The translations under genes and the position numbers were made by a program. From Patescibacteria group bacterium AH-259-L07 (GTDB lineage Bacteria > Patescibacteriota > Patescibacteriia > UBA2591 > UBA6264): a stretch of DNA of 38,038 nt. The notes below the pieces were generated by a model that was not told the DNA's origin, did no database searches, and worked only from the letters and a program-made list of their open reading frames with translations. This document shows, piece after piece, positions 3,755 to 37,859 of this stretch (its first letter is position 1; each line of letters opens with the position of its first letter). The stretch spans positions 1 to 38,038 of the forward strand of contig JALLOP010000002.1 in assembly GCA_027718005.1 (NCBI GenBank), in the 5' to 3' direction.

Positions 3755-4411
3755 ATGCCAACTAAGAAATCAACAACGAAAAAAACAACAAAAGAGCCGG
3801 CAAAAAAGCCGGTAGCCAAGCGAGCGACCAAGAAGCCGGTAAAAGAGACTACCAAACCGGCGGCAAAGAAAACAGTAAAGAAGGTTGCAACAAAGAAATC
3901 TGTTGAAAAAGCTCCTGTTGAAAAAGCTCCTGCTAAAAAATTAGCAACCAAGCCAAGCATTCACCCTGTTAAATCCGACAAAGTCGGTGTGAAACAATTT
4001 AACAGGGTAAAAAAAGTTGAGAAGGAGGAAATCTGGGCGACGGGAAAGCGAAAATCTTCTATTGCACGCGTGCAGTTTTTTAGTTCTGGGAAAGGAGAAA
4101 TTTCTATTAATAAGAGGAGTATAAAAGATTATTTTCCTGTATTTGAGCTGCAAAAGTCGGTGACATCACCGCTTGTTTTATTAAAACAAGATAAAAAATT
4201 TACCTTTAGAATAAGGGTTCATGGCGGCGGCATACGAGGTCAGGCAGAGGCAGCACGGTTGGGCATCGCGCGTGCTTTATCAGAGCTTAACCCAGAATGG
4301 CGAAAGCCGCTTAAAAAGGCAGGCTTTTTAAAGCGCGACCCGCGAAAAAAAGAACGAAAAAAACCAGGCCTCAAACGCGCCCGCCGCGCCCCGCAGTGGG
4401 CGAAGAGGTAA
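3755..4411 (+). CDS. rpsI: 30S ribosomal protein S9 with a Lys/Ala/Pro-rich N-terminal extension of about 100 aa
   Basis: The C-terminal 125 aa carry the S9 signature (GKRKSSIARV...GGGIRGQAEAARLGIARAL...PRKKERKK). ATG at 3755; the listed GTG at 3716 is an alternative start. Confidence 0.9.
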   Translation: MPTKKSTTKKTTKEPAKKPVAKRATKKPVKETTKPAAKKTVKKVATKKSVEKAPVEKAPAKKLATKPSIHPVKSDKVGVKQFNRVKKVEKEEIWATGKRKSSIARVQFFSSGKGEISINKRSIKDYFPVFELQKSVTSPLVLLKQDKKFTFRIRVHGGGIRGQAEAARLGIARALSELNPEWRKPLKKAGFLKRDPRKKERKKPGLKRARRAPQWAKR

Positions 4412-4412
4412 A
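4394..4412. repeat. attL core: 19-bp direct repeat covering the rpsI stop codon
   Basis: CAGTGGGCGAAGAGGTAAA is identical to 37841..37859. Confidence 0.75.
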
Positions 4413-4447
4413 CTGTGTAAAACTTAAAAGTCCCAAAAATTAAAAGG

Positions 4448-4461
4448 AACTGTGGATAACT
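4448..4461 (+). promoter_or_regulatory. single copy of the AACTGTGGATAACT motif, which contains an exact DnaA-box 9-mer
   Basis: This 14-mer also occurs twice in the tandem array at 35940..35963. TGTGGATAA is the reverse complement of TTATCCACA. It is also part of the palindrome TGTGGA-TAAC-TCCACA. Confidence 0.5.
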
Positions 4462-4466
4462 CCACA

Positions 4467-4499
4467 GCCCGACCATATGTTGGTCGGGCTTTTTGTTTT
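4467..4499 (+). terminator. intrinsic terminator supplied by the phage arm downstream of rpsI
   Basis: GCCCGACC / GGTCGGGC form an 8-bp stem with a 7-nt loop, followed by TTTTTGTTTT. Confidence 0.7.
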
Positions 4500-4516
4500 G
4501 GATAAATCGTTCTTAT

Positions 4517-4549
4517 GTAAGTTACAAAATTTCAATCGTAAGTTACAAA
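4517..4549. repeat. 12-bp direct repeat x2, each with an internal palindrome (operator or arm-site candidate)
   Basis: GTAAGTTACAAA occurs at 4517..4528 and 4538..4549, 21 bp apart. Each copy contains GTAA-G-TTAC. Confidence 0.5.
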
Positions 4550-4702
4550 CTATGGAGATTAAAACGAATACATTAAATGTGAAAGCATTTCGTGAGAGAC
4601 ACGACAAAGTAAAATTTGGCGTTGCCTTTTCTCTTTATGGAGCAAAGAGGCGGCGCCTTTTTGGTATCAAGTATTTTTATTACGGACTTAAAGGGAAAAA
4701 AT

Positions 4703-5023
4703 ATGCGAGGAATTATCACTAAAATTGATCAGTTGAAAAAGAGTTTTAACAACGATGATACTTGTTTTTATCGCCTCTACTTTAAGTTAGAGAGTGGGAG
4801 TTGGGCTAAGACTGATGCTGTGCCGGGCTTCAGAAACTTTGCGAGGTGGAAGCCGGTGATTGAAGGCGGTCCGGGCACAGCACTTAATGATTTGGTTTTG
4901 CTTGATGAGAATACGGTTGATGCTGATTGCTATCCGGAGATTATCACTGAGCCAAAACAAATCGAATTATTTGATTATGAACAAATATCAAAAACAAAAC
5001 ATACAGCTTTATCAGAGGCATAA
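4703..5023 (+). CDS. phage hypothetical protein
   Basis: In-frame ATG at 4703 inside listed ORF 4616..5023, preceded by AAAGGGA. Confidence 0.6.
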   Translation: MRGIITKIDQLKKSFNNDDTCFYRLYFKLESGSWAKTDAVPGFRNFARWKPVIEGGPGTALNDLVLLDENTVDADCYPEIITEPKQIELFDYEQISKTKHTALSEA

Positions 5024-5195
5024 GGAAGATATACAAAAAGGCTGGTGGGGATGGCATGGGTTGTTTGACCGGTTTCAATGCGTGAAGTGCGGAGAAACAC
5101 TGACGGGATCAGAATTTGTTACCGGCTATATCAAGAAAGGGGGCGAGGAGGCATGTAAAAAAATTCATTGTTATAACTGTTATAAAAGTTCTTAA
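4977..5195 (+). CDS. small zinc-ribbon protein
   Basis: In-frame ATG at 4977 inside listed ORF 4860..5195. Carries CVKC...CYNC cysteine pairs. Confidence 0.5.
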   Translation: MNKYQKQNIQLYQRHKEDIQKGWWGWHGLFDRFQCVKCGETLTGSEFVTGYIKKGGEEACKKIHCYNCYKSS

Positions 5196-5246
5196 AAAAG
5201 GTCGAACCAGCGCAACCTGGTTAAACTATTAAAATTGATTTTATTA

Positions 5247-6143
5247 ATGAGATTTATGGCACAAAAGAAAAAAGAAAAAAAACTAACACAGAAAGAACAG
5301 GAGGAAAAGACAGCTGTGGTGGTTCAGCCGATTCAGTCTCAGGTAGTTAAGTTTGGGCAATATGAGCCAGAAAAATTAGTAGAACGTGCAACAAAGATGG
5401 CCAATGCCCTTGCTCCCATTATTGATAAACAAAAGCTCTATATCCAGATTGGCAATAAAAAGTATGTTATGGCCGAAGGTTGGACTACAATGCTGGCGAT
5501 GTTGGGTGTATTTCCAGAGGTAGAATGGACTAAAAAAATAGAAAGAGGTGAAGAGATTGTATATGAGGCGCGCGTGATTCTTAAGACAATGAATGGCGAT
5601 ATTGTGAGTGCGGCTGAGTCTATGTGCTCATCTAAAGAGAAAAACTGGCAGGGCAGAGATGAATTTGCTATCCGTTCAATGGCTCAAACAAGAGCAACAG
5701 GCAAGGCCGCGCGTCTACCGTTCGCGTGGATAATGGCTTTGGGTGGTTATGCAGGAACCCCGGCAGAAGAGATGAATACTGATACGACAAAACCGCCATT
5801 CAAGGGAAACGAATTTAGCAGTAAGAAAAAATGGAGTAAAAAAAGCAAGCCAGTTACAGCCAAATCAGCTACAGCAATGATCAGCAAAGAACAGATAGAA
5901 ATTATCCATGAATTAGCCAAAGAAGGAGGAGCTAAAAGTTGGGCTGACGTGGTAATGTTGTCAGCTGGAATTTTAGAAAAACTTGTAACTGATATGAAAG
6001 AATTAACCTATGAGGATGCGGTTATAGTTATTAAAAGATTAACTGCAGAAGAAAAGCAAAATAAAAAACCAAGAACAAAAAAGGGAAAGATCGAAAAACT
6101 TATTGATGACGGAGAAATCGGCGATGACGAAATACCGAAATAA
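5247..6143 (+). CDS. phage early protein, possibly a DNA-binding or recombination protein (function not established)
   Basis: About 298 aa. ATGs at 5247 and 5256; the listed start is a TTG. Conserved-looking core (KKYVMAEGW..MLAMLG...MAQTRATGKAARL) with a Lys-rich linker. I cannot assign a family by eye. Confidence 0.6.
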   Translation: MRFMAQKKKEKKLTQKEQEEKTAVVVQPIQSQVVKFGQYEPEKLVERATKMANALAPIIDKQKLYIQIGNKKYVMAEGWTTMLAMLGVFPEVEWTKKIERGEEIVYEARVILKTMNGDIVSAAESMCSSKEKNWQGRDEFAIRSMAQTRATGKAARLPFAWIMALGGYAGTPAEEMNTDTTKPPFKGNEFSSKKKWSKKSKPVTAKSATAMISKEQIEIIHELAKEGGAKSWADVVMLSAGILEKLVTDMKELTYEDAVIVIKRLTAEEKQNKKPRTKKGKIEKLIDDGEIGDDEIPK

Positions 6144-6259
6144 TTGGCCATTGATCCTCGCTCTAACCAGATTTATGGTGCATATCTCAATGGCGTATGC
6201 TAATAGATTGTATCGGTTGGAGCGAGAACTGAACGGCTAATAAAAAGGAGGGACAAACA

Positions 6260-6355
6260 ATGAGCTATCCTGGCGCCATTACGACCAAGATAAACCCATT
6301 ATCGTCCCTTTGTAATTATAACAAAAAAAATGAAAGATACCAATATAAAAAATGA
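6260..6355 (+). CDS. 31-aa micro-ORF with the strongest Shine-Dalgarno sequence seen in the early region
   Basis: AGGAGG (6246..6251) lies 8 nt before ATG 6260. The ORF overlaps the start of the 6330 gene in another frame and is below the ORF-track cutoff. Confidence 0.3.
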   Translation: MSYPGAITTKINPLSSLCNYNKKNERYQYKK

Positions 6356-7082
6356 GGCCTGGAAATATGTAGTTATTACTGATAGCACAACCGATCAGCG
6401 ATTACTAAAAAAGGGAAGGATAGGTGTTTATGCTTATACTCTTTACCATTTTTACGCTACTCAATCAGCGATTCAACAGACCAATAAAGTCTGGATTACT
6501 GATAGTTTTTGTCGGAAAGGACTTCACTGGGGGCGGAACAAGTTTGAGCAAGCCAAAAAGATACTTATAAAAGAAAAAATTATTGAAGAAATACAAAGAA
6601 AAGACGAAAAGGGACATTTTACTAAAAAATATATTATCATTCATTTTCTCTATAATCCCGACCGTTTGACTCCAAACCCACAGGCGGTGAAACCCGCAAG
6701 CGGAAAAGAAACGACAAATGCTTTAGATAAAAAGACAAATGCTTTAGATAAAAAGATAAATGCTTCTAAAGAGAAAATAATAAATTACACCTTAAAAGAT
6801 AGAGAATTAACTGATTTATTATATTCTCTTGTCCAGAAAAATTATTCGTGGGTTAAACAAAAGACCGAAAAGGCATTAGAAAAAAATTGTGAAGAAATGA
6901 ACCGCCTTAACAGGATAGACGGCTGGGATTATAAGCAGATTGAATTTGTTATTAGATGGTCGCAAAAAGATGATTTTTGGCGTCAGAATATCAGGTCGGT
7001 CTCAAAACTTCGCAAACAGTTTGAAAATTTAATTATCAGAATCAAAGAAAAATCTAATAAAAATAAAATAGCGATTATATGA
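6330..7082 (+). CDS. putative replication organiser or DNA-binding protein
   Basis: The N-terminus looks like a winged helix. The C-terminus has FWRQNIRSVSKLRKQF. The gene contains 21-bp tandem repeats. Functional call is weak. Confidence 0.5.
   Translation: MKDTNIKNEAWKYVVITDSTTDQRLLKKGRIGVYAYTLYHFYATQSAIQQTNKVWITDSFCRKGLHWGRNKFEQAKKILIKEKIIEEIQRKDEKGHFTKKYIIIHFLYNPDRLTPNPQAVKPASGKETTNALDKKTNALDKKINASKEKIINYTLKDRELTDLLYSLVQKNYSWVKQKTEKALEKNCEEMNRLNRIDGWDYKQIEFVIRWSQKDDFWRQNIRSVSKLRKQFENLIIRIKEKSNKNKIAII
6714..6771. repeat. 21-bp tandem repeat, about 2.5 copies (iteron-like)
   Basis: ACAAATGCTTTAGATAAAAAG occurs at 6714..6734 and 6735..6755, followed by a partial degenerate copy. The repeats encode TNALDKK repeats. 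Confidence 0.8.
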
Positions 7083-7441
7083 TCAAAGTTAAATATAGCG
7101 AACAAGATATTTTTGAGTTAACAGAACAGGAGTTTAAAAAAGCATTATCAGAATGGAATAAAGGCAGGTCGGTTTTTGTCCGTCGTCTCGGAGCGTCTTT
7201 GTCGCCGTATTATCGTTGGGCCGGGGTTGAACCAGTTAATCCTAATGCAGGATACACGCGCGATGGCCGCAAAATGTTTCGTAAATTTGGGGAGTGGCGG
7301 TTTGTTGAATGTCCGGAACTAAAACCTGATCTGACTTATTATCCCGAAATCGCCAAAGATGAATTATTAACTGAGCAAGAATTTAAAAATAGATATTTAT
7401 TAAAAAAAGCTGATGAAAAATTGGAAAAGAAAAAAAATTAA
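7079..7441 (+). CDS. phage hypothetical protein
   Basis: 120-aa ORF whose ATG overlaps the upstream stop (ATGA). Confidence 0.7.
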   Translation: MIKVKYSEQDIFELTEQEFKKALSEWNKGRSVFVRRLGASLSPYYRWAGVEPVNPNAGYTRDGRKMFRKFGEWRFVECPELKPDLTYYPEIAKDELLTEQEFKNRYLLKKADEKLEKKKN

Positions 7442-7533
7442 AAAGCCAATTTGGGAACAACCTGCTTGCTATTTTTGTGGCTATCAAGGCAGACATAGAA
7501 AGGATTGTAAAATAAAAATTAGAAAAAAAATAT

Positions 7534-7752
7534 ATGCTAACCGACCAAGAAATAAAAATCGGCAAACTAAAACAAGACGTCATTGATCTGGCGCTTGATT
7601 TAGAAGTTACAAGAATTGAAAAACAGGCAATGGACATTACCTGTGAAAAACAAGGAGATTATGTGCGTTTATTATCACTTGAAACCGCATTACACAACAT
7701 ACAAAGGGGGTTAAATGAAATGGTCGCAGGAGGGATAAGAGAATATAATTAA
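7534..7752 (+). CDS. phage hypothetical protein
   Basis: 72-aa ORF. It competes with an unlisted 57-aa ORF at 7413..7586. Confidence 0.5.
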   Translation: MLTDQEIKIGKLKQDVIDLALDLEVTRIEKQAMDITCEKQGDYVRLLSLETALHNIQRGLNEMVAGGIREYN

Positions 7753-7774
7753 GATTTTAACTAATTTAGAACTT

Positions 7775-7972
7775 ATGGATAATTTAGACAAATTACAAGA
7801 CGAAATAGGAGGATTAAGCGCTGAAGTTGAAAGATTATTAAAACTTTTAGAAGAGAAAGATGAGGAAATTCAAAGATTGAATGAAAGGTTAGATAAGATA
7901 GATAACCTTGCTCATAGATTAGATAAAGTAGATGACATTACCTACGATATTAGAGAAGTAATTAAAAGATAG
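7775..7972 (+). CDS. small coiled-coil protein
   Basis: 65-aa ORF with a heptad-like charged sequence. Confidence 0.6.
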   Translation: MDNLDKLQDEIGGLSAEVERLLKLLEEKDEEIQRLNERLDKIDNLAHRLDKVDDITYDIREVIKR

Positions 7973-8086
7973 CCCCAACGCAACAAGTGCCTTTTGTAAA
8001 AACCTGAATAGTTCCCTGTGCAGTAACTGGACAAGTAAGGTCTTAAGGTTCAATGAGAATTCCAGCTTGTTCAACTGGGGGAATAA

Positions 8087-8157
8087 CGCGGGGTGGAGTA
8101 GTGGCAACTCGGTGGTTTCATACGCCACAGACACGGGTTCAATTCCCGTCCCTGCTA
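8087..8157 (+). tRNA. tRNA-Met, anticodon CAT, with initiator-like features
   Basis: Cloverleaf built by hand:
- Acceptor CGCGGGG / CCCTGCT.
- U8.
- D arm GAGT-AGTGGCA-ACTC.
- Anticodon arm GTGGT-TTCATAC-GCCAC.
- T arm ACGGG-TTCAATT-CCCGT.
- Discriminator A.
- No encoded CCA. Confidence 0.8.
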
Positions 8158-8160
8158 TAT

Positions 8161-8308
8161 GGGCGAGTGGCGGAATAGGTAATCGCTATGGTGAGGATAT
8201 TCTACAAAGGTATAAACATAAGAAACCTTTGGGTTGAAAAACATAAGCTAGTGGAGTAATTAACCACAAAAAAGAGTCCTTGTCAGGTGCAAATCCTGAC
8301 CTCGCCCT
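8161..8308 (+). ncRNA. tRNA-like element with an internal insertion of about 70-95 nt (aberrant, intron-containing or degenerate tRNA)
   Basis: - It starts 3 nt after the tRNA-Met.
- Perfect 7-bp acceptor pairing GGGCGAG (8161..8167) / CTCGCCC (8301..8307).
- Canonical U8 and D arm GCGG-AATAGGTAA-TCGC.
- T-like arm GTCAGG-TGCAAAT-CCTGAC.
- No canonical anticodon arm could be drawn. Confidence 0.4.
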
Positions 8309-8325
8309 AAACCAAGATATAAATT

Positions 8326-8757
8326 ATGAAAATATCTAACGAAGAAAAATCATATTTAGCTGGTTACATAGACGCCGATGGCAGTCTTGGAATTTATAAA
8401 AGTAATCATGGTTATTATAGTGTCATAGTTACAGCTTCAAGCACTGATTTAAGAGTTCTAAACCGTTTAAAATTTTTATATAAAGGTTCTGTAAGATGTG
8501 TAAGACACGGAAAAGAAAATTGGAAAGATGAATATAGATGGGTTATCGCCACAAAACAATCTGTAAAATTCTTAAATGATATTTATTCTTATTTGATATT
8601 AAAAAAAGATAGAGCAAAAGTTTTATTAGATTTTCAATCAACTATGAAAAGTGGTCAGTATCTTACTCCCGAAATTATAAAAATACGAGAAAAGTTATTG
8701 AGAAAAATAGCTACCCTTAACAAAAAAGGTGTTTCGCCCACTAAAAAACTAATTTAG
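8326..8757 (+). CDS. LAGLIDADG homing endonuclease (single-motif type)
   Basis: YLAGYIDADGSLGI motif near the N-terminus; 143 aa. Confidence 0.85.
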   Translation: MKISNEEKSYLAGYIDADGSLGIYKSNHGYYSVIVTASSTDLRVLNRLKFLYKGSVRCVRHGKENWKDEYRWVIATKQSVKFLNDIYSYLILKKDRAKVLLDFQSTMKSGQYLTPEIIKIREKLLRKIATLNKKGVSPTKKLI

Positions 8758-8762
8758 AATTT

Positions 8763-9116
8763 ATGCGAGAAATAAAATTTAGAGGAGTTGATGAAAATAA
8801 TAAAATATATAATTTGTCAGCCATAAACTTAAAAACTATGGCTGGGTTTTGTAAGGTGAAAGGAAGGGTTGAAGAAGAATGGTGTAAGTTTGAAAAGTTT
8901 ATTCAGTTTACTGGCCTAAAAGATAAAAATGGTAAAGAGATTTATGAGGGGGATATATTAATGTCAAGGAATTTTAGTGGTGAATTTTCAAAAATTGAGG
9001 TTATATATTCACAAAAAGAAGGAGCATTTACTACTAAAGAGGGTTATTTATTTGCAAGATATGAGAATAAAATAATCGGCAATATCTACGAAAATCCTGA
9101 ACTATTAAAAAACTAA
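8763..9116 (+). CDS. YopX-family phage protein
   Basis: MREIKFRG..., TGLKDKNGKEIYEGDIL and IGNIYENPELLK are the hallmark blocks of the YopX family. Confidence 0.85.
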   Translation: MREIKFRGVDENNKIYNLSAINLKTMAGFCKVKGRVEEEWCKFEKFIQFTGLKDKNGKEIYEGDILMSRNFSGEFSKIEVIYSQKEGAFTTKEGYLFARYENKIIGNIYENPELLKN

Positions 9117-9125
9117 TTTAATTAT

Positions 9126-13759: not shown

Positions 13760-13784
13760 TTTATTGATTTATGAGAATAAATGT

Positions 13785-13982: not shown

Positions 13983-13983
13983 T

Positions 13984-29076: not shown

Positions 29077-29077
29077 T

Positions 29078-32000: not shown

Positions 32001-33103
32001 ATTTAGCTTTTTTAACAGGCAAGGTGGCTTGGAATTTAGCAACCCAGCCATTGTCTTATATAATGAATGTTCCAATGGAAACTGGTATCAGAAATTCAAT
32101 TATAGCTATTGGCAAATCTTTCAATAAGTCATTAAGAGAATATGTTAAAATAAATTCAAATGTATTGGCTATCAAAAGCGGAGATATTAGGGCAATAGCC
32201 ATTGGAGAGGGAAGAAATATACAAAATAGAATTTATAAAACCAAGATAAATCACTACAACGATTTTATTTCTATGTTGGGATCGATAGAAGAAAGGGAAT
32301 TAACAAGAGCTTCCTTTATAGCTGGATTAGAACGAGCAAAACAATTAGGACTTAAGGGCGAAGATACTATATGGTTTGCTGATTTAACTGCCGCAAGAAC
32401 ACAATCAATGTATAATAAAGAAAATAGAGCATTGATATTAAATAGCGACATTGCAAGAACCATGTTTCCTTTTCAAAGTTTTTCTGTTGAAATGTTTAAT
32501 CATTTTAAAGAAATATCCACCAAGGCAAGTGGGGCAATGCGATTAACATATAGACAGAGATTTGGTAAATTATTTGGATTGTTAGTTGGGTTGTATTTAG
32601 CAAATTTATATTCGGAAGCATTAACGGGACGCAAAAAAACAACAATCGGCACTTTTGTTCCTTTCTTTGGGGCTTATGTTGATATGTTAATTGCCAAAGG
32701 GGCAGGCAAAGAATATTATGGTGGTAGAAGCCCTATAACTGTTATTCAAATATTACGAGATGGCTTAGATGGAGCGAGGGATTATATAGAGCATGGAAGT
32801 ATAAAGAGATTAAGAAAACTTGCTCTTAATTTCGGATTAGCACTTGGAGGAATTGGCGGAGGGGGACAAATAAACAATATCATAGATGGCATAATGGCTA
32901 ATATAAACGAAGATGTTAGAAATATCAAAGGAGATGTTATGTTTGAAGTAAAAGATGCCGAAAGTAAAATAAAAGCACCTATTTTTGGAATATGGGCTAC
33001 AAAAGAAGGCAAAGAATATTGGTTGCCAAAAGAAAAGAAAAAGAAGCCTGGTTTACCCAAATTACCAAGTCTTCCTAAATTACCTAAGTTACCTAATATT
33101 TAA
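29078..33103 (+). CDS. giant virion protein (tape-measure or ejection-protein-like) with an N-terminal HNH-type motif
   Basis: - 1341 aa.
- EVDHIIPLALGGTEDPHNLQAL near residue 85.
- A Pro-rich PxxP/KP tract.
- Duplicated PLA.E..KFKS.EEF motif.
- C-terminal hydrophobic helices and GGIGGGGQ. Confidence 0.75.
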   Translation: MALDLSAFGIKTKDPIEEKEPEIGKLNLSAFQIPQFLGGGEFRGRSTLQPSELEPFKTERGGLGTIEKREIRGGTFLETEKEVDHIIPLALGGTEDPHNLQALKNKKTITQTIFDAFTGKKRLPSDYKPKNRQEGKMVVEWKAINKYESGEISLAEARGAVINWEDPAIFLHEEREKLKPPIDIFDLFKKKEEPRFEIPITEEEKRRVVKPSLLPEPSIWKGNLPEFVKHSFKKQLQKERIYSWFIKTQPERNREIQTFAPLIFTYEGRNKLVEQGKITPEEAEIYSVIPEYLPVFTGMRQMGVKELTKMIGKASEYKSGQQFAEAIAKKFGTNVTEVNKGFAKFGMPNAQKLWEFATGRTTALTIPKRPIPGIKGKPPIITPPPAPVKPVLPVLPKIPVKPVSKITEKVKIPTIPSVGVKPEVKPVVPEEVRPLPKDIKRVEPEVRVTERELREVISKELRPLAEEVKKFKSPEEFIKKLKSIDDELVRLRSTIPTIEKRIQKLPKEDRFLAEVVAGEKLQPDIIRAFTEKFDVGEDALRRFFNLAKVIEFKPKVKPILKGLEPLAKEARKFKSSEEFVDFIEKSIVKRKIEVPVGMKGIPEVEREINRLQNIIRKNFVVDAKLSKSQLTDFYNQAVKEVKPIVKAKTKVKPKLKPEKVPIKAVSDFKNFINLKKIKTKDIPYKEMDIAERTTPKGNKLPAIRKTGFFATKDIEDAFVRDVYNQTLPPHLMALKQDGYKLGGKFGVIFRRIWKPTEKAIRNEKEFISSHSKLIRQLGKKHHIKPSEKNLKHLSDVIEGKVKATPKEEAYLKELRTVLDDLRNQANAVRRIMGKKEIGYIENYIPHIQKTALWSELLSNRATISDNLDFIIPNQAKNPFAYKRMFELLPDAERNLYILLDRYIRAISKDIYLAPAIENIKVYNSVLKNRELTNASRYWDEYIRTGLIGKQHKLDLSLSIGLKGRKVLQKWNNMVNLAFLTGKVAWNLATQPLSYIMNVPMETGIRNSIIAIGKSFNKSLREYVKINSNVLAIKSGDIRAIAIGEGRNIQNRIYKTKINHYNDFISMLGSIEERELTRASFIAGLERAKQLGLKGEDTIWFADLTAARTQSMYNKENRALILNSDIARTMFPFQSFSVEMFNHFKEISTKASGAMRLTYRQRFGKLFGLLVGLYLANLYSEALTGRKKTTIGTFVPFFGAYVDMLIAKGAGKEYYGGRSPITVIQILRDGLDGARDYIEHGSIKRLRKLALNFGLALGGIGGGGQINNIIDGIMANINEDVRNIKGDVMFEVKDAESKIKAPIFGIWATKEGKEYWLPKEKKKKPGLPKLPSLPKLPKLPNI

Positions 33104-33204
33104 AATGTTTCTTCCAAATAAATCCCAAATACCACACCCATTAAAATTAAACCTATTATAAGCATCCAATATACTTCTGCATCTTCTTTTAATATATTTT
33201 TCAT
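33100..33204 (-). CDS. 34-aa single-pass membrane peptide (unlisted ORF)
   Basis: MKNILKEDAEVYWMLIIGLILMGVVFGIYLEETF. Same strand as the 33333..34112 gene. Its stop overlaps the stop of the giant ORF. Confidence 0.3.
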   Translation of the reverse strand: MKNILKEDAEVYWMLIIGLILMGVVFGIYLEETF

Positions 33205-33332
33205 AAACTATTTCTTATGACTAAAAAAATTAAAACTCAAGGCAAAATTTACTTCGCTAACGGAAAATATTTTGGAGTTATCGGAAAAGTTAAACAAAAG
33301 AATAAAGATAAATATTCAAATTCTTAAAAAGG

Positions 33333-34112
33333 TTAAAATAGAGGATTATCAATCCATTGTAGCGTTTTGTTGATTTCCTCTAATTTACTATTTAATGTAT
33401 CCATTTGACTTCTACTAATTGATCTATCAAGTTGATCAAGGTAATCATAAATAGATGGATCAATAGGGGCAACAGAATACTCTAATTTAAGTTTTAGCTT
33501 AGTAAGTTCTAATCGGGCTGATTCGGCCATTTCTTTATAAGCGAGCGCGGCCTCAAGGGCTTTCACATAATCTTCTAATACTTCGCTTATCGCTTTCTCA
33601 AATTTTATATCCACATCACTTTTATTATAACTATTTTGAGCTAATGTTTCATACGCTTCCTGCCATTCTGTAACATTGTCTATACAAGTATTCCGGTCCT
33701 GCAGAATTACTAAATGTTCATTTTTAAAGAAATTTAAATCTTTCTGACATTGCTGATACCCTGGATTATCCTTATAAACAATCTTTTCAACCGGTATTTC
33801 TTTGATAATTTCTTTTGGGACTTCCTTAATAATTTCCTTGACGACAATTTTTTCAACAGGGACTTCCTTAATTATTATTTCGGGTTCGCAAATTTTTGTA
33901 GAGGAAGATTCAGAGGAAGATTCATAGGAAGATTTTTTTGGTGATGTTTCAATTTGAGACAATTCTTTTTTAAACACTTGACCAACTGAAGATTTTATAT
34001 TTGACCACGAAAACCAATCAAAAAAACCAGCATTAGCCGGTTGAATATTAATAAAAGATAATAATAAAAGAAGAGATATAACGATTATTAAATTCTTTTT
34101 ACCCCACATCAT
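33333..34112 (-). CDS. secreted or membrane-anchored repeat protein (moron candidate)
   Basis: N-terminal signal/anchor LIIVISLLLLLSFINIQPANA. KEVPVEKIVVKEIIKEVPKEIIKEIPVEKIV repeats. Coiled-coil C-terminus. Opposite strand with its own promoter. Confidence 0.7.
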   Translation of the reverse strand: MMWGKKNLIIVISLLLLLSFINIQPANAGFFDWFSWSNIKSSVGQVFKKELSQIETSPKKSSYESSSESSSTKICEPEIIIKEVPVEKIVVKEIIKEVPKEIIKEIPVEKIVYKDNPGYQQCQKDLNFFKNEHLVILQDRNTCIDNVTEWQEAYETLAQNSYNKSDVDIKFEKAISEVLEDYVKALEAALAYKEMAESARLELTKLKLKLEYSVAPIDPSIYDYLDQLDRSISRSQMDTLNSKLEEINKTLQWIDNPLF

Positions 34113-34118
34113 ATTTTA

Positions 34119-34146
34119 ATTATAACAGATATTAGAAAAAAGTCAA
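34119..34146 (-). promoter_or_regulatory. sigma70-like promoter giving a leaderless or near-leaderless mRNA for the 34112 gene
   Basis: On the minus strand: TTGACT (34146..34141), a 16-nt spacer, then TATAAT (34124..34119). Only 6 nt separate the -10 from the ATG. Confidence 0.5.
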
Positions 34147-34147
34147 T

Positions 34148-34375
34148 ATGCCAGATAAAATTTCACCAAAAAATAATGAACAAGATAGACAATTAGCCAA
34201 AGTTGAACAAAGAGTTGAAGATTGGTTTGTTTTGTTTGATAAATTTATAATTAACGATTTTCATTCTCTTAAAAAAAGAGTAGAAAAGATTGATATTCGC
34301 GTTTGGGGGATTCTGATTACTCTTATAACAATTCTTTTAGGAGTGATTGGTATTTTAGTAAAGTTGTTTAAATAG
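34148..34375 (+). CDS. tail-anchored small membrane protein, XhlA-like or holin-associated (putative)
   Basis: 75 aa with an N-terminal coiled coil and a single C-terminal TM (VWGILITLITILLGVIGILV). It lies directly upstream of the putative endolysin. Confidence 0.5.
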   Translation: MPDKISPKNNEQDRQLAKVEQRVEDWFVLFDKFIINDFHSLKKRVEKIDIRVWGILITLITILLGVIGILVKLFK

Positions 34376-34448
34376 AGATGTATGTCATATCAACTCTTTT
34401 ATAAAAATGCACCACAAGTGATTCTGGTGCGTCACAAACACAAAAAAT

Positions 34449-35393
34449 ATGCCTAAACATCGTAAATATCCTAAAAACTTCGGTTTGATCATAGAAGAGC
34501 CGCGTCCGTCTGATTGGCAATTTGGCGTTAGCGCAATAGATGAGACGCCGATTAATCCTTCAGGCGATTGGTCTAACTTTAGACCAGCCATAGAATATCA
34601 GCATTATCCTAACTTTGATACAATGGGGTGCGTTTCATTCTCGGCTCTTAACTGCTTGGAAACATTACACAATTTTAAATATGGAAAAATAATAAACCGC
34701 TCTGATAGATTTACTGTTGTAGCTTCGGAAACCACTATTAAAGGGAACACCTTTGTTAAAGTAGGGGATAGTATTAGGAAATTACACGGAACGATTGATC
34801 AAGGCAGGTGGACTTTTACCGGCACTACGCGAGAGCAGTATTTTGGAATTATCCCACAAGTATTATTTGATGAAGGATTAGATTGGCTCAACTTTTACAA
34901 CGTAAATTATGAATGGGCTCATCCGCCCTTTGCCGCACAGTTAATGCAAGCCCTGAAAACCGCTCCGATACAAGTTACCGTTTATGGATGGGAGAATCCT
35001 GTTAATGGGATTTACCAGCGGACAGAGAGAATAAATAATCACGCGGTAATGTTGTTTAATTATAAGGAGGGAGAATGGTGGGAGATACTGGATCATTATG
35101 ATATCGATGTTAAGAGACTGGCGTGGAATTTTCATTTTGGTTATGCCTTTAGATATAATATAAATAAAATAAAACTTATGAAATTAGTAAGAGTTCCAAA
35201 ATTTTCAACAGTTTATTTAGTTGTAAATAATATAGCTACGCCTATCGGAAATGAAAAAATTTATCAAAAACATTTTAACGATCCTGAATGGAAATTGATC
35301 GAAATTATATCAAAAGAAGATTTGACTAAACATAAAATAGTTGATAAAATGATAGATAAGGAATTAGTTAAAAATGTAATTGATAAAATATAA
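34449..35393 (+). CDS. papain-fold cysteine peptidase, putative endolysin
   Basis: TMGCVSFSALN (Cys nucleophile context), then NHAVMLFNY (His), then WWEILDHYD, in the Cys..His..Asp/Asn order of papain-like enzymes. Confidence 0.55.
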   Translation: MPKHRKYPKNFGLIIEEPRPSDWQFGVSAIDETPINPSGDWSNFRPAIEYQHYPNFDTMGCVSFSALNCLETLHNFKYGKIINRSDRFTVVASETTIKGNTFVKVGDSIRKLHGTIDQGRWTFTGTTREQYFGIIPQVLFDEGLDWLNFYNVNYEWAHPPFAAQLMQALKTAPIQVTVYGWENPVNGIYQRTERINNHAVMLFNYKEGEWWEILDHYDIDVKRLAWNFHFGYAFRYNINKIKLMKLVRVPKFSTVYLVVNNIATPIGNEKIYQKHFNDPEWKLIEIISKEDLTKHKIVDKMIDKELVKNVIDKI

Positions 35394-35396
35394 TTT

Positions 35397-35861
35397 ATGA
35401 TAAAAGGAAGTAAACATTCAGAAGAAATCAAAAGAAAAATAAGCAATTCTCTTAAAGGAAATAAAAACCCTTTTTGGGGCAAACATCATACAGAGGAATC
35501 TAAGATAAAGATGAGCAAAGCGCATACAGGAAAAAAATTATCTGAAGAGCATAGAATAAATATGAGCAAAGCCCTTAAGGGCAGAAAAAAATCAGAAGAA
35601 CATAAGAGAAATATAAGCAAAGCACAATTAGGAGAAAAAAATCATTTATGGAAAGGAGATAAGGTAGGTTATCGCGCTCTCCATAGATGGGTTGAAAAAT
35701 GGAAGGGTAAACCAACTCAATGTGAACATTGTAAAGAAGATGGATTAATTGATAAACAAATAAATTGGGCAAACAAATCAGGAAACTATTTAAGGGACTT
35801 AAGAGATTGGATTAGATTATGTGTTAAATGTCATAGAGAATATGACAAAGGATCAATATAA
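35397..35861 (+). CDS. HNH homing endonuclease (family B) with NUMOD3-like repeats
   Basis: SEEIKRKISNSLKG, TEESKIKMSKAHTG, SEEHRINMSKALKG and SEEHKRNISKAQLG motifs. C-terminal LWKGDKVGYRALHRW...CEHC...INWANKSGNYLRDLRDWIRLCVKCHREYD. Confidence 0.85.
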   Translation: MIKGSKHSEEIKRKISNSLKGNKNPFWGKHHTEESKIKMSKAHTGKKLSEEHRINMSKALKGRKKSEEHKRNISKAQLGEKNHLWKGDKVGYRALHRWVEKWKGKPTQCEHCKEDGLIDKQINWANKSGNYLRDLRDWIRLCVKCHREYDKGSI

Positions 35862-35933
35862 GGAAAGAGTCAAGAATGGTTGGGGTTTATAATTAGGAAT
35901 TGATTTGCTATTGAAAGGTCATTGAATTGATCC

Positions 35934-35963
35934 GTGGATAACTGTGGATAACTGTGGATAACT
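35934..35963 (+). repeat. three tandem 10-bp repeats, GTGGATAACT, containing DnaA-box 9-mers
   Basis: CGTGGATAA at 35933..35941, and TGTGGATAA at 35943..35951 and 35953..35961. Spacing is exactly 10 bp. A T-run and AT-rich DNA follow. Confidence 0.85.
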
Positions 35964-35976
35964 TTTTTTGATATTG

Positions 35977-36024
35977 TGATATAATAAAATACGCTATTGA
36001 CAAATTTTCAAGATTTTGTATAAT
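35977..36024 (+). promoter_or_regulatory. tandem promoters: an extended -10 and a near-consensus -35/-10
   Basis: TGATATAAT at 35977..35985. TTGACA (35997..36002), a 16-nt spacer, then TATAAT (36019..36024). Confidence 0.55.
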
Positions 36025-36030
36025 AGTATT

Positions 36031-36135
36031 ATATATGACTCACCATCAGCAAACAACAACAAGTAATATACTTTTATTAAAAAATAAAAGAACCCGCTAC
36101 AATTATATTACATTGTAGGGATTCTTTTGTTTTTT
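36031..36135 (+). ncRNA. short promoter-to-terminator transcript (sRNA or 27-codon micro-ORF)
   Basis: The predicted +1 (about 36031) is 4 nt before ATG 36035. The only ORF, MTHHQQTTTSNILLLKNKRTRYNYITL, runs into the terminator hairpin. Confidence 0.35.
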
Positions 36136-36276
36136 AATTTAATGGACCCTTGGGGGGTCAAACCCCTCGCGCGCTAACACAGATGGTTATAAATCATCTT
36201 TCACCTGATCGGGTGAGCCAGGGCCCTTATGTAGGGTCCCTTAAAACAATCAAACAATCATTTTTAAGGGTCCATT
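36080..36276 (-). ncRNA. candidate structured non-coding RNA of about 200 nt (family unknown)
   Basis: - A consensus promoter lies immediately upstream on the minus strand.
- An 18-bp perfect inverted repeat (36134..36151 / 36266..36283) encloses four GC-rich hairpins and a tandem 8-mer.
- The RNA ends at the bidirectional terminator. Confidence 0.5.
36090..36135. terminator. bidirectional intrinsic terminator shared by convergent short transcripts
   Basis: The stem pairs CTACAAT with ATTGTAG and extends through GAACCC / GGGATTC. TTTTGTTTTTT follows on the + strand and TTTTATTTTTT on the - strand. Confidence 0.6.
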
Positions 36277-36282
36277 AAATTA

Positions 36283-36311
36283 ATTATAATATTCCAGAAA
36301 ATTTATGTCAA
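36283..36311 (-). promoter_or_regulatory. perfect consensus sigma70 promoter on the minus strand
   Basis: On the minus strand: TTGACA (36311..36306), a 17-nt spacer, then TATAAT (36288..36283). The predicted +1 is near 36276. Confidence 0.6.
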
Positions 36312-36419
36312 GGTCTGAAAGGCAATAAATTTTACACATTTTATCAACATTCTAATATGTCATTTTATTCTTGTCATTCCTGACAAGTTTTTTATTTTAT
36401 AGGAGTGGACAAATAGGGG

Positions 36420-36447
36420 TTGACAAAATTATTATATCTGTTACTAT
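36420..36447 (+). promoter_or_regulatory. promoter for the small HTH gene, overlapped by a GTTAC-N7-GTAAC inverted repeat
   Basis: TTGACA (36420..36425), a 16-nt spacer, then TACTAT (36442..36447). GTTAC at 36440..36444 and GTAAC at 36452..36456. Confidence 0.45.
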
Positions 36448-36489
36448 TTATGTAACACCATTATTCTAATATTCTATTTTGTTACATTT

Positions 36490-36672
36490 ATGAAACGGGT
36501 ATTAAAAATTGTTAAACAATACCGCAAAATAGGGGATTCTCTTTTAGAAGCATATATAAAAGACCGGGCAGAGGAGGGGCACTCTCTTGCTGATATTAAA
36601 GAGGAGTTGAAAAAAGCAAAGATCGATTTTTCACGAACCCATATTTGGAGGTTTGTTAATAAAAAGAAATAA
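36490..36672 (+). CDS. small HTH protein (excisionase or regulator candidate)
   Basis: 60 aa, basic, with an HTH-like HSLADIKEELKKAKIDFSRTHIWRFV. It lies directly upstream of the integrase. Confidence 0.55.
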   Translation: MKRVLKIVKQYRKIGDSLLEAYIKDRAEEGHSLADIKEELKKAKIDFSRTHIWRFVNKKK

Positions 36673-36678
36673 AAAAGC

Positions 36679-36715
36679 ACCCGCATTTTCAGCGGGTCTG
36701 GGAGGAAAGTCCCAG
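36679..36715 (+). terminator. two adjacent hairpins after the HTH gene (weak terminator candidate)
   Basis: ACCCGC / GCGGGT at 36679..36697 and CTGGGA / TCCCAG at 36698..36715. There is no clear T-run on the + strand. Confidence 0.3.
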
Positions 36716-36805
36716 CATTTCAGTTTGCAAAAGCTCTTGCTACTGAATTGGCTCAATATAATTATAGCACGCCTTAAATAAGTGTAAAGGCGTTGGAAAG
36801 GTGCT

Positions 36806-37684
36806 ATGCGAATTGAGGATAAATTTTTAGATTATCTGAGTTATCTCAGGAGGACTGGGTTAACTGAGAAAACAGTAACCGAACATCGGCGATTTTTATT
36901 TGGCTCAATTTCTCATTCAGTCTCAAGGACTAAAATTAAAAAATTAAAACTAACCGATATCGCTAAAACTATCGAGGCAGGAAAGGTGCACGGGGAATAC
37001 GGCAGTCAACGATCGGTTGTTACTTTACGGCGTTATTTAAAGTATTTACAAGACACCGGCGTTAGGATCCCCTTTGACTGGCGCGATATCAAGGTGCCGC
37101 AAGTCCCGGAGAAAGAAAAAATTTCTTTAACAAAAGAGGAGCTGGAAAAGATTTTTAAAAATATAATGACATCATCGGCCAAACCCCAATGTCGTCTCCG
37201 TATGCGCACCTTGTTTGAGGTGTTGTTTTCTACGGGGATGAGAATATCAGAGGCACTTTCCTTGACAAGGGAACAGTTTAAGGAAATAAAAAAAACTAAG
37301 GAAACAATTATCAGGGGCAAGGGTGGCGATGAGCGTATAGTTTATTTTACTGATCGGGCAATCGAGTGGATTGAAAGAAATTTAAAAGCGAGAAATGATG
37401 ACTGTCCGGCGCTTTTTATTAATACACTCGGCAGGCCCCTAATAATGGTAACGGCAAAAAGCGACTTGCTTCGTCACCGGGACGAGTGGGGCATACCAAA
37501 GCGCGTGCATTTTCATATTGTTAGACGGACGCTGGCAACACTCTTGATAGAAGGCGGGGCGGATATGAAGTCAACACAAACTATTCTTGGACATCGATCT
37601 CCTCGCACAACATTAAGATATTATGTAACGGTAAATCGCAAAAGAGCGAAGCAAGTTCATCAGAGAATATTGGCAACAATTTGA
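36806..37684 (+). CDS. int: tyrosine recombinase / phage integrase (Xer-like, 292 aa)
   Basis: TGMRISEAL (catalytic Arg box), HFHIVRRTLATLL and LGHRSPRTTLRYY give the R..H..R..H..Y catalytic pattern. The gene lies 157 bp from attR. Confidence 0.9.
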   Translation: MRIEDKFLDYLSYLRRTGLTEKTVTEHRRFLFGSISHSVSRTKIKKLKLTDIAKTIEAGKVHGEYGSQRSVVTLRRYLKYLQDTGVRIPFDWRDIKVPQVPEKEKISLTKEELEKIFKNIMTSSAKPQCRLRMRTLFEVLFSTGMRISEALSLTREQFKEIKKTKETIIRGKGGDERIVYFTDRAIEWIERNLKARNDDCPALFINTLGRPLIMVTAKSDLLRHRDEWGIPKRVHFHIVRRTLATLLIEGGADMKSTQTILGHRSPRTTLRYYVTVNRKRAKQVHQRILATI

Positions 37685-37705
37685 GTTGCTTGATCGATTA
37701 AAGTA

Positions 37706-37714
37706 TGGTATAAT
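37706..37714 (+). promoter_or_regulatory. outward-facing extended -10 promoter at the prophage right end
   Basis: TGGTATAAT (TGnTATAAT) lies just after the integrase stop and points across attR into host DNA. Confidence 0.4.
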
Positions 37715-37840
37715 ATAGATAGTTAATAATTATTGCGGAGGATTCTGGAATTTTAAAAATAGTAAAACCTTAAAATTTGGCTTATTTAGGTTCAAATTAA
37801 GCATATGGTCGGTTTTGGGACTCTCACAAGTTTAGCTCCT

Positions 37841-37859
37841 CAGTGGGCGAAGAGGTAAA
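37841..37859. repeat. attR core: 19-bp direct repeat
   Basis: CAGTGGGCGAAGAGGTAAA is identical to 4394..4412. Confidence 0.75.

What the first reader, a model, noticed from the sequence alone, without database searches (positions are those of the whole stretch)
4394..37859. Prophage integrated into the 3' end of ribosomal protein S9, with codon-preserving att mimicry
- An exact 19-bp direct repeat, CAGTGGGCGAAGAGGTAAA, occurs at 4394..4412 (the last five codons of rpsI plus TAA) and at 37841..37859. The integrase gene lies 157 bp inside the right copy.
- Just upstream of the right copy the phage arm reads GCT CCT. The host reads GCC CCG.
- Both copies therefore encode ...APQWAKR-stop, with synonymous differences outside the core. 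The phage attP thus mimics the S9 C-terminus, and integration leaves rpsI intact.
- The phage arm also provides a replacement intrinsic terminator (4467..4499). The probable native stem-loop is displaced to 37866..37890.
- Integration into a ribosomal-protein gene is less common than into tRNA or tmRNA genes.
Basis: seen in the sequence. Interest (0 to 1): 0.6.

Follow-up and report, generated by a model that had tools for sequence, protein, structure and literature searches.

The report
Prophage inserted at ribosomal S9 gene end
A 33-kb tailed-phage genome sits just after the stop codon of the ribosomal protein S9 gene of a small-genome uncultivated bacterium, placed there by an integrase whose relatives use the same site; this kind of insertion is already known in other bacteria.

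Summary
The exact 19-bp repeat lies at 4394-4412 and 37841-37859 (0 of 100 shuffles). It brackets a co-oriented phage gene set with an intact tyrosine integrase whose stop is 156 nt before the right copy. rpsI is full length.

New evidence makes rpsI targeting a trait of the integrase clade:
- 6 of 7 genome loci with an integrase at least 40% identical carry an S9 C-terminus-like remnant (..QW.KR-stop) downstream. None of 73 distant loci does.
- Three named Patescibacteria MAGs show the full layout: rpsI, a 10-37 kb element, int, then the remnant.
- Two contigs show the unintegrated order (int, S9 mimic, early genes). One of them also has a terminator after the mimic and a TerL 49% identical to the window's.

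- DNA right of 37859 is not the ancestral rpsI flank. In the same-genus genome that flank starts at the stop codon, and here it lies on another contig (C94:14766).
- The prophage therefore heads an array of at least 48 kb at an rpsI hotspot. The array also holds R-M genes, a chemotaxis operon found in no other of 41 genomes searched, and a decayed rpsI 3' fragment.
- The 37866-37890 hairpin is not the native terminator.
- No empty site or reads were obtainable.

Integration at the rpsI 3' end is already known in Firmicutes. This is a new member of a known kind.

The parts
3755..4411 (+). rpsI (ribosomal protein S9, 218 aa, with a Lys-rich N-terminal extension of about 95 aa); intact
   Evidence: Pfam PF00380, 3.1e-42, residues 97-218 cover profile 1-121 of 121; translation
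4394..4412 (+). attL core: left copy of the exact 19-bp direct repeat (last 5 codons of rpsI, TAA, then A)
4388..4412 (+). Extended imperfect repeat, left copy (23 of 25 identical to 37835-37859); GCC CCG is the host version
   Evidence: family D11
4413..37840 (+). Prophage body (33,428 bp), genes almost all on the + strand
4447..4470 (+). Hairpin in the phage left arm containing a DnaA-box 9-mer (TGTGGATAA at 4451)
4466..4500 (+). Intrinsic terminator supplied by the phage arm, 55 nt after the rpsI stop
   Evidence: 10-pair stem, 7 GC pairs, tail TTTTGTTTTG; fold z = -4.05 for 4385-4505
6330..7082 (+). Replisome organizer / DnaD-like helicase loader
   Evidence: phrog_2514, 5.8e-15, and related families
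8087..8157 (+). Phage-borne tRNA-Met (CAT)
   Evidence: ARAGORN; Rfam RF00005, 56.2 bits
10693..11940 (+). ParB-N / N6_N4 DNA methyltransferase fusion
   Evidence: Pfam PF01555 2.1e-30, PF02195 1.8e-13
11937..12344 (+). Terminase small subunit (weak match)
   Evidence: phrog_2538, 9.3e-07
12341..13759 (+). Terminase large subunit
   Evidence: phrog_2, 1.7e-15; 49% identical to the TerL fragment of phage contig L170
15772..17502 (+). Portal protein (SU10-type)
   Evidence: Pfam PF23899, 1.3e-11; 37% identical to IMG/VR locus L068
20179..21252 (+). Major head protein
   Evidence: phrog_267, 7.2e-32; matches to deposited phage capsid genes at 38% or less
26291..27007 (+). Head-tail adaptor (SU10 adaptor)
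   Evidence: Pfam PF24175, 6.7e-08
29078..33103 (+). 1341-aa protein with an N-terminal HNH motif and weak tape-measure / virion-protein matches
35933..35961 (+). Three tandem 10-bp units (GTGGATAACT); two of them give the full DnaA-box 9-mer, at 35943 and 35953
36490..36672 (+). 60-aa ORF upstream of int. No family match. The 36419-36593 stretch is 86.5% identical to G000:C116:12351-12528
36806..37684 (+). Tyrosine integrase, 292 aa, at the right end and co-oriented with rpsI
   Evidence: Pfam PF00589, 1.7e-30. R146, K172, H237, R240, H263 and Y273 are invariant across 6 clade members
37835..37859 (+). attR: phage-arm codons GCT CCT plus the right copy of the 19-bp core (37841-37859)
37866..37890 (.). 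10-pair hairpin right of attR. It is terminator-like only on the - strand and is not the ancestral rpsI terminator
37970..37998 (+). Host-type promoter-like motif. It has about 8 partial copies in this genome and about 20 in the same-genus genome. 37943-38038 is 79% identical to the region upstream of an R-M-like gene in G001:C56

Best explanation
Window 4413-37840 is a temperate tailed phage. Its 292-aa tyrosine integrase inserted it by site-specific recombination into a core sequence formed by the last codons and stop codon of rpsI.

The crossover lay inside the 19-bp identity. As a result:
- S9 is unchanged.
- The phage left arm now follows the stop codon and supplies a strong intrinsic terminator.
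- The phage right arm (int, 156 nt, then GCT CCT plus the core) forms attR.

Targeting the S9 C-terminal codons is a heritable specificity of this integrase clade in Patescibacteria-type genomes. Related phages carry the S9-like codons followed by a terminator in their own attP.

In this genome the phage did not land in a pristine site. It is the rpsI-proximal member of an array of inserted DNA at least 48 kb long between the rpsI stop codon and the ancestral downstream gene prs.

Shown: the repeat, the gene content, the intact rpsI, the clade-wide association, the attP-order contigs and the position of the ancestral flank.
Inferred: the position of the crossover, the order of insertions, physical linkage of contigs C61 and C94, and present-day ability to excise.
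For: **The site itself**
- Exact 19-bp repeat, unique in window and genome.
- Integrase with all six catalytic positions conserved.
- Full set of phage modules between the repeats.
- Full-length S9.
- Terminator at 4466-4500.

**Clade test in genome contigs**
- 80 integrase loci were kept.
- 6 of the 7 loci with at least 40% identity carry Q[WF].[KR]R-stop on the int strand, 108 to 1083 nt downstream of int.
- 0 of the 73 loci below 33% identity carry it, on either strand, anywhere in the locus.

**Metagenome contigs**
- 7 loci at 40% or more represent 5 distinct sequences.
- 4 of the 5 carry the remnant. The fifth, L069, ends 293 nt after int.

**Whole layout in named MAGs**
| MAG | Layout | Repeat |
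|---|---|---|
| Ca. Taylorbacteria, G057 | rpsI, about 10.5 kb, int | 30-bp exact repeat |
| Parcubacteria, G058 | rpsI, about 10.4 kb, int | 15-bp exact repeat, then AGA TAA against CGT TAG (both read Arg-stop) |
| Ca. Paceibacterota, G061 | rpsI, about 36.8 kb with a portal homolog, int | remnants present |
| Patescibacteria, G056 | two int homologs 4 kb downstream of rpsI | none found |

**Unintegrated gene order**
- L170 (19.9 kb) reads: structural genes, int (50% identical)..SRAPQWQKR-stop, terminator, early genes (homologs of window 5235-6143 and 4616-5023), TerL (49%). No host gene is present.
- L073 reads: int..RLKRARVPPQWAKR-stop, then a homolog of window 8763-9116.

**Array**
- G001 is syntenic with window 1399-4410 and has prs about 200 nt after rpsI.
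- That spacer and prs match G000:C94:14766-15037 at 94%, starting at the stop codon.
Against: - No genome, contig or read joins 4412 directly to 37860.
- No sequencing run could be listed, so neither the empty attB nor a circular attP junction of this particular phage was seen.
- Only 179 bp lie to the right of attR, and the contig ends there.
- C61, C31 and C94 are separate contigs of a 75.6%-complete MAG. Their order is inferred from synteny with G001 only.
- No core-like remnant is visible at the right edge of the array, C94:14740-14765.
- No close relative of the integrase was found among 55 genomes of the host's order (best 39%, Xer-like), in IMG/VR, or among deposited phages (best 29%).
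- L079/G056 lacks the remnant. In L078 the remnant is 1083 nt from int.
- The attP-order contigs could in principle be junctions between tandem prophages.
Confidence: 0.88

Rival explanations
1. It is a simple single insertion. The DNA right of 37859 is the native downstream region of rpsI. The C94 arrangement then reflects an unrelated rearrangement, or a second strain in the bin.
For: - The right flank carries a promoter-like motif that recurs about 8 times in this genome and about 20 times in the same-genus genome, so it is host-type DNA.
- Linkage of C61 to C94 is not shown.
Against: - In G001 the DNA that follows the rpsI stop codon matches C94:14766 onward at 94%. The homology starts at the stop codon itself.
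- The window's right flank instead matches the region upstream of an R-M-like gene at another G001 locus (C56), at 79%.
- The genome holds only one intact rpsI and one prs, and estimated contamination is 1.16%.
- C94 also carries a 357-bp rpsI 3' fragment 8 kb upstream of prs.
Confidence: 0.25
2. The contig is an assembly chimera. A free phage genome and a host contig were joined through the shared 19-25 bp, so no integrated prophage exists.
For: - It is a MAG contig, and no reads could be examined.
- The contig ends 179 bp after attR.
Against: - Both junctions lie in one contig, and each has a different partner sequence.
- A 19-bp identity is shorter than the usual assembly word sizes (general knowledge, not tested here).
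- The same layout recurs in independently assembled MAGs G057, G058 and G061 on contigs of 36-233 kb.
Confidence: 0.04
3. The S9-like remnants next to the integrases are only displaced host rpsI ends. Their protein-level conservation is then a historical leftover, and the phages carry no S9 mimic of their own.
For: - In integrated elements the sequence to the right of the crossover at attR is host-derived by construction.
- The Macrococcus islands show a displaced rpsI 3' end in their second repeat (passage read).
- Ser is AGT or TCA and Arg is CGN or AGR among the remnants. Hosts with different codon usage could produce that pattern.
Against: - Two contigs in phage-only gene order carry the S9-like codons between int and the early genes, with no host gene present (L170; L073).
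- In the window the arm codons GCT CCT differ from the host's GCC CCG, yet they are identical to the L170 att site over 13 nt.
Confidence: 0.15

Closest known systems
McRImecD resistance islands of Macrococcus caseolyticus and related rpsI-associated tyrosine integrases of Bacillus and Staphylococcus (PMC5341023; abstract and passages containing 'rpsI' read)
   Same: - A tyrosine integrase inserts the element site-specifically at the 3' end of rpsI.
- Direct repeats include the rpsI 3' end and stop codon.
- Elements accrete in tandem at the site.
- A displaced rpsI 3' end sits in the distal repeat, comparable to the 357-bp fragment on C94.
   Different: - Those repeats are 160-163 bp with a 61-bp core. 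Here the identity is 19 bp exact (25 bp imperfect).
- There the int gene lies at the rpsI-proximal end of the island. Here, and in all clade members placed relative to rpsI, int is at the distal end and co-oriented with rpsI.
- Those elements are non-phage islands of Firmicutes.
- Sequence relatedness of the integrases was not tested.
Streptococcal ICEs, IMEs (IMESag-rpsI), PICI-like elements and the GBS prophage integrase type GBSInt5 at rpsI (PMC4701971, PMC7487436: passages read; PMC5090054: search listing only)
   Same: - The 3' end of rpsI is the target of tyrosine integrases.
- The site is described as a hotspot where ICEs, prophages and PICI-like elements pile up. That matches the array inferred here.
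   Different: - The host phylum differs, and the elements are mostly conjugative or mobilizable.
- No att sequence is listed for GBS5 in the table passage seen.
- The window integrase has no match above 29% among 50,697 deposited phage records.
Phages that integrate into the 3' end of a protein-coding gene and carry a replacement 3' end, for example phage 21 and e14 in icd of E. coli (recalled; no paper read here)
   Same: The phage att site duplicates the end of the target gene, so the gene product is preserved after integration.
   Different: In the window the stop codon lies inside the identity, so only the downstream terminator is replaced. In clade relatives (G058, G061) one to three terminal codons are replaced synonymously.

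Membership tests
Tyrosine recombinase / phage integrase family (Pfam PF00589) | Catalytic domain match above the curated cut-off | tested here: met
   106.5 bits against a cut-off of 27.1, residues 108-278 cover profile 3-170 of 172
Tyrosine recombinase / phage integrase family (Pfam PF00589) | Catalytic R-K-H-R-H/W-Y residues present | tested here: met
   R146, K172, H237, R240, H263 and Y273 are invariant in the 6-member alignment A1. Assigning these positions to the catalytic roles rests on recalled knowledge of the family
Integrated temperate tailed phage (prophage) | Packaging and head genes (terminase, portal, major head protein) together with an integrase, bounded by direct repeats | tested here: met
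   TerL phrog_2 1.7e-15, portal PF23899 1.3e-11, head phrog_267 7.2e-32, adaptor PF24175, integrase PF00589; 19-bp repeats
Integrated temperate tailed phage (prophage) | Empty site (attB) in a related genome, or excised circular form (attP), for this same element | tested here: inconclusive
   - The same-genus genome G001 has no element after rpsI, but its flank corresponds to C94:14766, not to 37860.
- No sequencing run was listed.
- The 19-mer in IMG/VR gave 5 hits, all one unrelated family.
- attP order was seen only in relatives with a 42-50% identical integrase
rpsI-3'-end-specific integrative elements | The repeat includes the last codons and stop codon of rpsI, and rpsI stays intact | tested here: met
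rpsI-3'-end-specific integrative elements | Site specificity recurs among relatives of the integrase | tested here: met
   - 6 of 7 close genome loci against 0 of 73 distant loci.
- 4 of 5 distinct metagenome loci.
- 4 of 4 MAGs in which rpsI and int share a contig have int 4-37 kb downstream of rpsI and co-oriented with it
rpsI-associated integrases of Firmicutes (McRImecD, IMESag-rpsI, GBSInt5) | Sequence relatedness to those integrases | not tested
The only indirect result is that the best match among deposited phage records is 29%

The most novel reading that the evidence does not exclude
A clade of small, Xer-sized tyrosine integrases found across Patescibacteria is specialised on the last codons of rpsI.

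- Its att copies evolve under protein-level constraint. They always read ..QW(S/A/Q)KR-stop, while Ser switches between AGT and TCA and Arg between CGN and AGR.
- In some lineages the copies occur as tandem units exactly 55 bp apart.
- The rpsI stop codon would then be a main gateway for gene gain in these reduced genomes. Here it has accreted at least 48 kb: a phage, R-M systems, and the only chemotaxis operon found among 41 related genomes.
Probability: 0.4. Interest if true: 0.55.

Novelty: new member of a known kind. Interest (0 to 1): 0.42.

Why it matters
- Prophages with defined attachment sites are scarce for small-genome uncultivated bacteria. This clade gives a simple rule for delimiting integrated elements and linking phage contigs to hosts: look just after the rpsI stop codon, and look for a short S9-tail remnant a few hundred bases past a small integrase.
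- The rule already flags phage contigs binned into MAGs labelled archaeal and Verrucomicrobiota.
- In this genome the same site appears to have collected defence genes and a chemotaxis operon that no relative searched has. This suggests how such reduced genomes acquire new functions.
- The mechanism itself, integration into the 3' end of rpsI with the gene preserved, is not new.

Tried and rejected
**Searches that gave nothing**
- Public reads: the look-up of sequencing runs on window:1-8824 listed none.
- IMG/VR: the 19-mer gave 5 hits, all in one unrelated coding context, so they are chance matches. The integrase and TerL gave no relative. The portal gave one relative at 37%, a 4.6-kb contig with no att information.
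- Integrase in the host's order (55 genomes): the best non-self hit is 39%, one per genome and Xer-like, with no related prophage.
- Contig ends: no contig overlaps the end of C61. C31 as its neighbour rests only on synteny with G001:C56.

**Ideas tested and dropped**
- Mosaic origin of the rpsI 3' half. A three-way comparison of the window, the C94 fragment and G001 over 361 columns gave unique changes of 15, 35 and 26. The C94 fragment is the outlier, mostly in its last 120 nt. No clean breakpoint appeared, so I could not decide which copy is ancestral.
- A terminator in the ancestral spacer on C94. A short hairpin plus T-run is visible by eye, but the scanner did not call it.
- Rfam at gathering threshold found only the tRNA.
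- G056: no repeat of 10 nt or more between the rpsI end and the DNA after the second int.

**Tools and material not available**
Figures S4 and S7 of PMC7487436 and Table S3 of PMC5341023, which may give att sequences and integrase accessions, were not seen.
- The metagenome and genome collection scans were each used once, on the integrase. No pattern scan for the empty site could therefore be made there.

Full report
**1. The observation**

- The 19-mer CAGTGGGCGAAGAGGTAAA occurs exactly twice in the window, at 4394-4412 and 37841-37859. There is no further match with up to two mismatches, and none in 100 dinucleotide-preserving shuffles. It has no other copy in the 1.41-Mb, 148-contig genome G000, of which the window is the whole contig C61.
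- The left copy closes a 218-aa S9 gene (3755-4411) that matches Pfam Ribosomal_S9 end to end (3.1e-42, profile 1-121 of 121).
- The repeat extends to 25 nt at 23 of 25 identity, with GCC CCG on the left and GCT CCT on the right. The right copy read in frame gives ..SLAPQWAKR-stop.
- The integrase ORF (36806-37684; Pfam Phage_integrase 1.7e-30) ends 156 nt before the right copy.
- The + strand terminator at 4466-4490 plus T-run is called by the scanner. The segment 4385-4505 folds far better than shuffles (z = -4.05).
- The 37866-37890 hairpin exists, but its T-run is on the - strand only.

**2. What lies between the repeats**

Nearly all ORFs are on the + strand. The recognisable genes are:

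| Coordinates | Gene | Evidence |
|---|---|---|
| 6330-7082 | replisome organizer | |
| 8087-8157 | tRNA-Met | |
| 10693-11940 | ParB-methylase fusion | |
| 11937-12344 | TerS | |
| 12341-13759 | TerL | phrog_2, 1.7e-15; |
| 15772-17502 | SU10-type portal | |
| 20179-21252 | major head protein | phrog_267, 7.2e-32; |
| 26291-27007 | adaptor | |
| 29078-33103 | 1341-aa protein with weak tape-measure-like matches | |
| 36806-37684 | integrase | |

- At least six free-standing HNH or homing-endonuclease genes are present.
- In a six-member alignment of the clade, R146, K172, H237, R240, H263 and Y273 are invariant.
- The phage is remote from deposited phages. The integrase matches at 29% or less and the head protein at 38% or less over part of its length.

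This is a prophage.

**3. Is rpsI the target by design?**

A metagenome scan with the integrase gave nine loci. Seven have 40-56% identity and represent five distinct sequences, because L071/L072 and L074/L075 overlap identically.
- In four of the five, a short frame reading ..PQW(S/A)KR-stop lies 160-330 nt downstream of int on the same strand.
- The fifth contig ends 293 nt after int.

A scan of one genome per species with the integrase alignment kept 80 loci.
- Of the seven with at least 40% identity, six carry Q[WF].[KR]R-stop downstream of int.
- Of the 73 with less than 33% identity, none carries it in any of six frames anywhere in the locus.

In the four MAGs where rpsI and int share a contig, the whole layout is visible. 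In all four, int is at the end distal to rpsI and co-oriented with it.

| MAG | Element | Repeats |
|---|---|---|
| Ca. Taylorbacteria (G057) | about 10.5 kb | 30-bp exact repeat at the rpsI end and 122 nt after int |
| Parcubacteria (G058) | about 10.4 kb | 15-bp exact repeat, followed by AGA TAA at the rpsI side and CGT TAG at the far side (both Arg-stop) |
| Ca. Paceibacterota (G061) | about 36.8 kb, with a portal homolog | rpsI end CAGTGG TCA AAG CGC TAA; remnants CAGTGG AGT AAG CGC TAA and CAGTGG TCA AAA CGA TAA |
| Patescibacteria MAG (G056) | two tandem int homologs 4 kb downstream of rpsI | none detected |

**4. Is the S9-like sequence carried by the phage?**

Two contigs have the gene order expected of an unintegrated genome.
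- L170 is a whole 19.9-kb contig placed in a MAG labelled Aenigmatarchaeota. It reads: structural genes, int (50% identical), 327 nt..SRAPQWQKR-stop, an intrinsic terminator about 25 nt later, early genes homologous to window 5235-6143 and 4616-5023, then TerL (49% identical, cut by the contig end). No host gene is present.
- Its att region shares the 13-mer AGCTCCTCAGTGG with the window's right junction. The window's arm codons GCT CCT are therefore an inherited phage feature. They also equal the rpsI sequence of the same-genus genome G001.
- L073 reads: int..RLKRARVPPQWAKR-stop, then a homolog of window 8763-9116.

They could also be junctions of tandem prophages, which I cannot exclude.

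In the window itself the stop codon is inside the identity, so no codon is replaced. The GCT CCT codons end up at attR, untranslated. In relatives such as G058 and G061, one to three terminal codons do differ synonymously between the two copies. That is the pattern expected if the phage copy becomes the real end of S9.

**5. The surroundings change the picture**

- G001 (same genus, S9 86% identical) is syntenic with window 1399-4410 at about 92%. It has prs about 200 nt after rpsI with nothing in between.
- That spacer and prs match G000:C94:14766-15037 at 94%, and the homology begins at the stop codon. The ancestral right flank of rpsI is therefore on another contig.
- Upstream of it, C94 carries the following (coordinates on C94):

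| Coordinates | Content |
|---|---|
| 221-6440 | eight-gene chemotaxis operon |
| 6475-6831 | 5'-truncated, frameshifted rpsI 3' fragment, 84% identical to window 4050-4405 |
| 6968-7612 | LexA |
| 7690-11378 | two Dam-type methylases and an AlwI-type nuclease |
| ending at 12418 | DpnI-like gene |
| about 12637-14442 | three ORFs with no convincing family match |

- CheA was found in 1 of 41 genomes searched, G000 only. It was found in 0 of 31 high-quality relatives.
- The 179 bp right of attR hold a promoter-like motif common in both genomes of the genus. 37943-38038 is 79% identical to the region upstream of an R-M-like gene in G001:C56, whose G000 ortholog is the 2.6-kb contig C31.

The simplest reading is that the prophage is the rpsI-proximal member of an array of insertions. 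The array is at least 48 kb long: 33.4 kb plus 0.18 kb plus 14.8 kb, not counting C31 and any gap. This resembles the hotspot behaviour reported at rpsI in streptococci. The hairpin at 37866-37890 would then belong to an older insert and not to the native locus. Contig order is inferred, not shown.

**6. Comparison with what is known**

- Passages read in PMC4701971, PMC7487436 and PMC5341023 document the rpsI 3' end as a target of tyrosine integrases. The elements are streptococcal ICEs, a GBS prophage integrase type (GBSInt5), PICI-like elements and the Macrococcus McRImecD islands.
- The Macrococcus islands have 160-bp imperfect repeats, a 61-bp core that includes the stop codon, and a displaced rpsI end in the second repeat.
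- The kind is therefore known.
- What is new here is the host group, an apparently separate integrase lineage with int at the distal end, evidence for clade-wide specificity with attP-form contigs, and the composite array.
- I did not test whether this clade is related to the Firmicutes integrases.
- The host is called Patescibacteria-type by inference. Relatives at 90% completeness or more are 0.5-1.3 Mb, and the integrase's nearest named relatives are Patescibacteria MAGs.

**7. Unexplained**

- In L070, L072, L074, L081 and L083 the S9-like unit occurs twice, exactly 55 bp apart start to start.
- In G057 a second unit follows 28 nt after the first, at both ends of the element.
- In the window a degenerate copy (GTAGTGGGCAAATAGG) forms the 3' arm of the hairpin right of attR.
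- Possible readings are scars of earlier integrations or accessory integrase-binding sites. Neither was tested.

**8. Verdict**

The mechanism is ordinary site-specific integration into the end of a conserved gene. It is a new member of a known kind, of moderate interest.

Noticed in passing
G000:C94:6475-6831 (locus L023): A 357-bp 3' fragment of rpsI lies between cheD and lexA, 8 kb upstream of prs. It is 5'-truncated at the start of the S9 domain and has a 1-nt insertion and stops. It is 84% identical to window 4050-4405. Its first 180 nt are about 93% identical to the window copy and its last 180 nt about 75%.
   Followed up: partly
G000:C94:221-6440 (locus L023): A chemotaxis operon (CheW, CheC-like, two CheY, CheB, CheA, CheC/CheX, CheD) sits inside the extra DNA at the rpsI hotspot. 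CheA was found in G000 only, out of 41 genomes of the family and order searched.
   Followed up: partly
window 3960-4011: A palindromic element of about 52 nt lies in frame inside the Lys-rich N-terminal extension of S9. It is absent from the same-genus rpsI, and full or partial copies occur on at least 8 other contigs of G000. This is reminiscent of in-frame palindromic elements reported in Rickettsia (recalled).
   Followed up: partly
window 4451, 23279, 35943, 35953; whole G000: The DnaA-box 9-mer TTATCCACA/TGTGGATAA occurs 131 times in G000, about 12 times expectation. The prophage has three tandem 10-bp units at 35933-35961 and one copy in a hairpin right after attL.
   Followed up: no
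window 8326-8757, 15325-15762, 18288-18761, 19640-20110(-), 27012-27605, 35397-35861, 29078-29400: The prophage has an unusually high load of HNH/NUMOD3 homing-endonuclease genes (at least six free-standing, plus an HNH motif at the start of the 1341-aa protein). They share 51-60-nt repeat families (D1, D2).
   Followed up: no
window 36419-36593 and G000:C116:12351-12528: A 175-bp stretch covering the start of a 60-aa ORF upstream of int is 86.5% identical to a second place in the genome. It has no family match.
   Followed up: no
window 15668-15688 and 36286-36306; 36140-36260: An exact 21-nt repeat lies inside the phage. The second copy follows a GC-rich non-coding stretch that looks structured. 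Rfam found nothing there at the gathering threshold.
   Followed up: no
L070, L072, L074, L081, L083 (downstream of int); L163 1591-1640 and 12102-12150: S9-tail-like units (..PQWSKR-stop) occur in tandem, exactly 55 bp apart in five loci and 28 nt apart in the Taylorbacteria MAG. The two units use different synonymous codons.
   Followed up: partly
L084/L170 (G060:C19) and L083: A 19.9-kb phage contig related to this prophage is binned in a MAG labelled Aenigmatarchaeota. A clade integrase locus is binned in a 2.9-Mb MAG labelled Verrucomicrobiota, whose own rpsI is on another contig. Both are probably mis-binned.
   Followed up: no
L165 (G056:C20) 5938-7721: Two tandem homologs of the integrase (46% and 40% identical) lie 4 kb downstream of rpsI, followed by a cytosine-methylase-like ORF and a 672-aa ORF. 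No flanking repeat was found, so this is probably a decayed island.
   Followed up: partly
G000:C31 (2586 bp): A short contig carries an R-M-like 223-aa ORF and a convergent 533-aa ORF with a LexA-like N-terminus. Synteny with G001:C56 suggests it follows the end of the window.
   Followed up: partly
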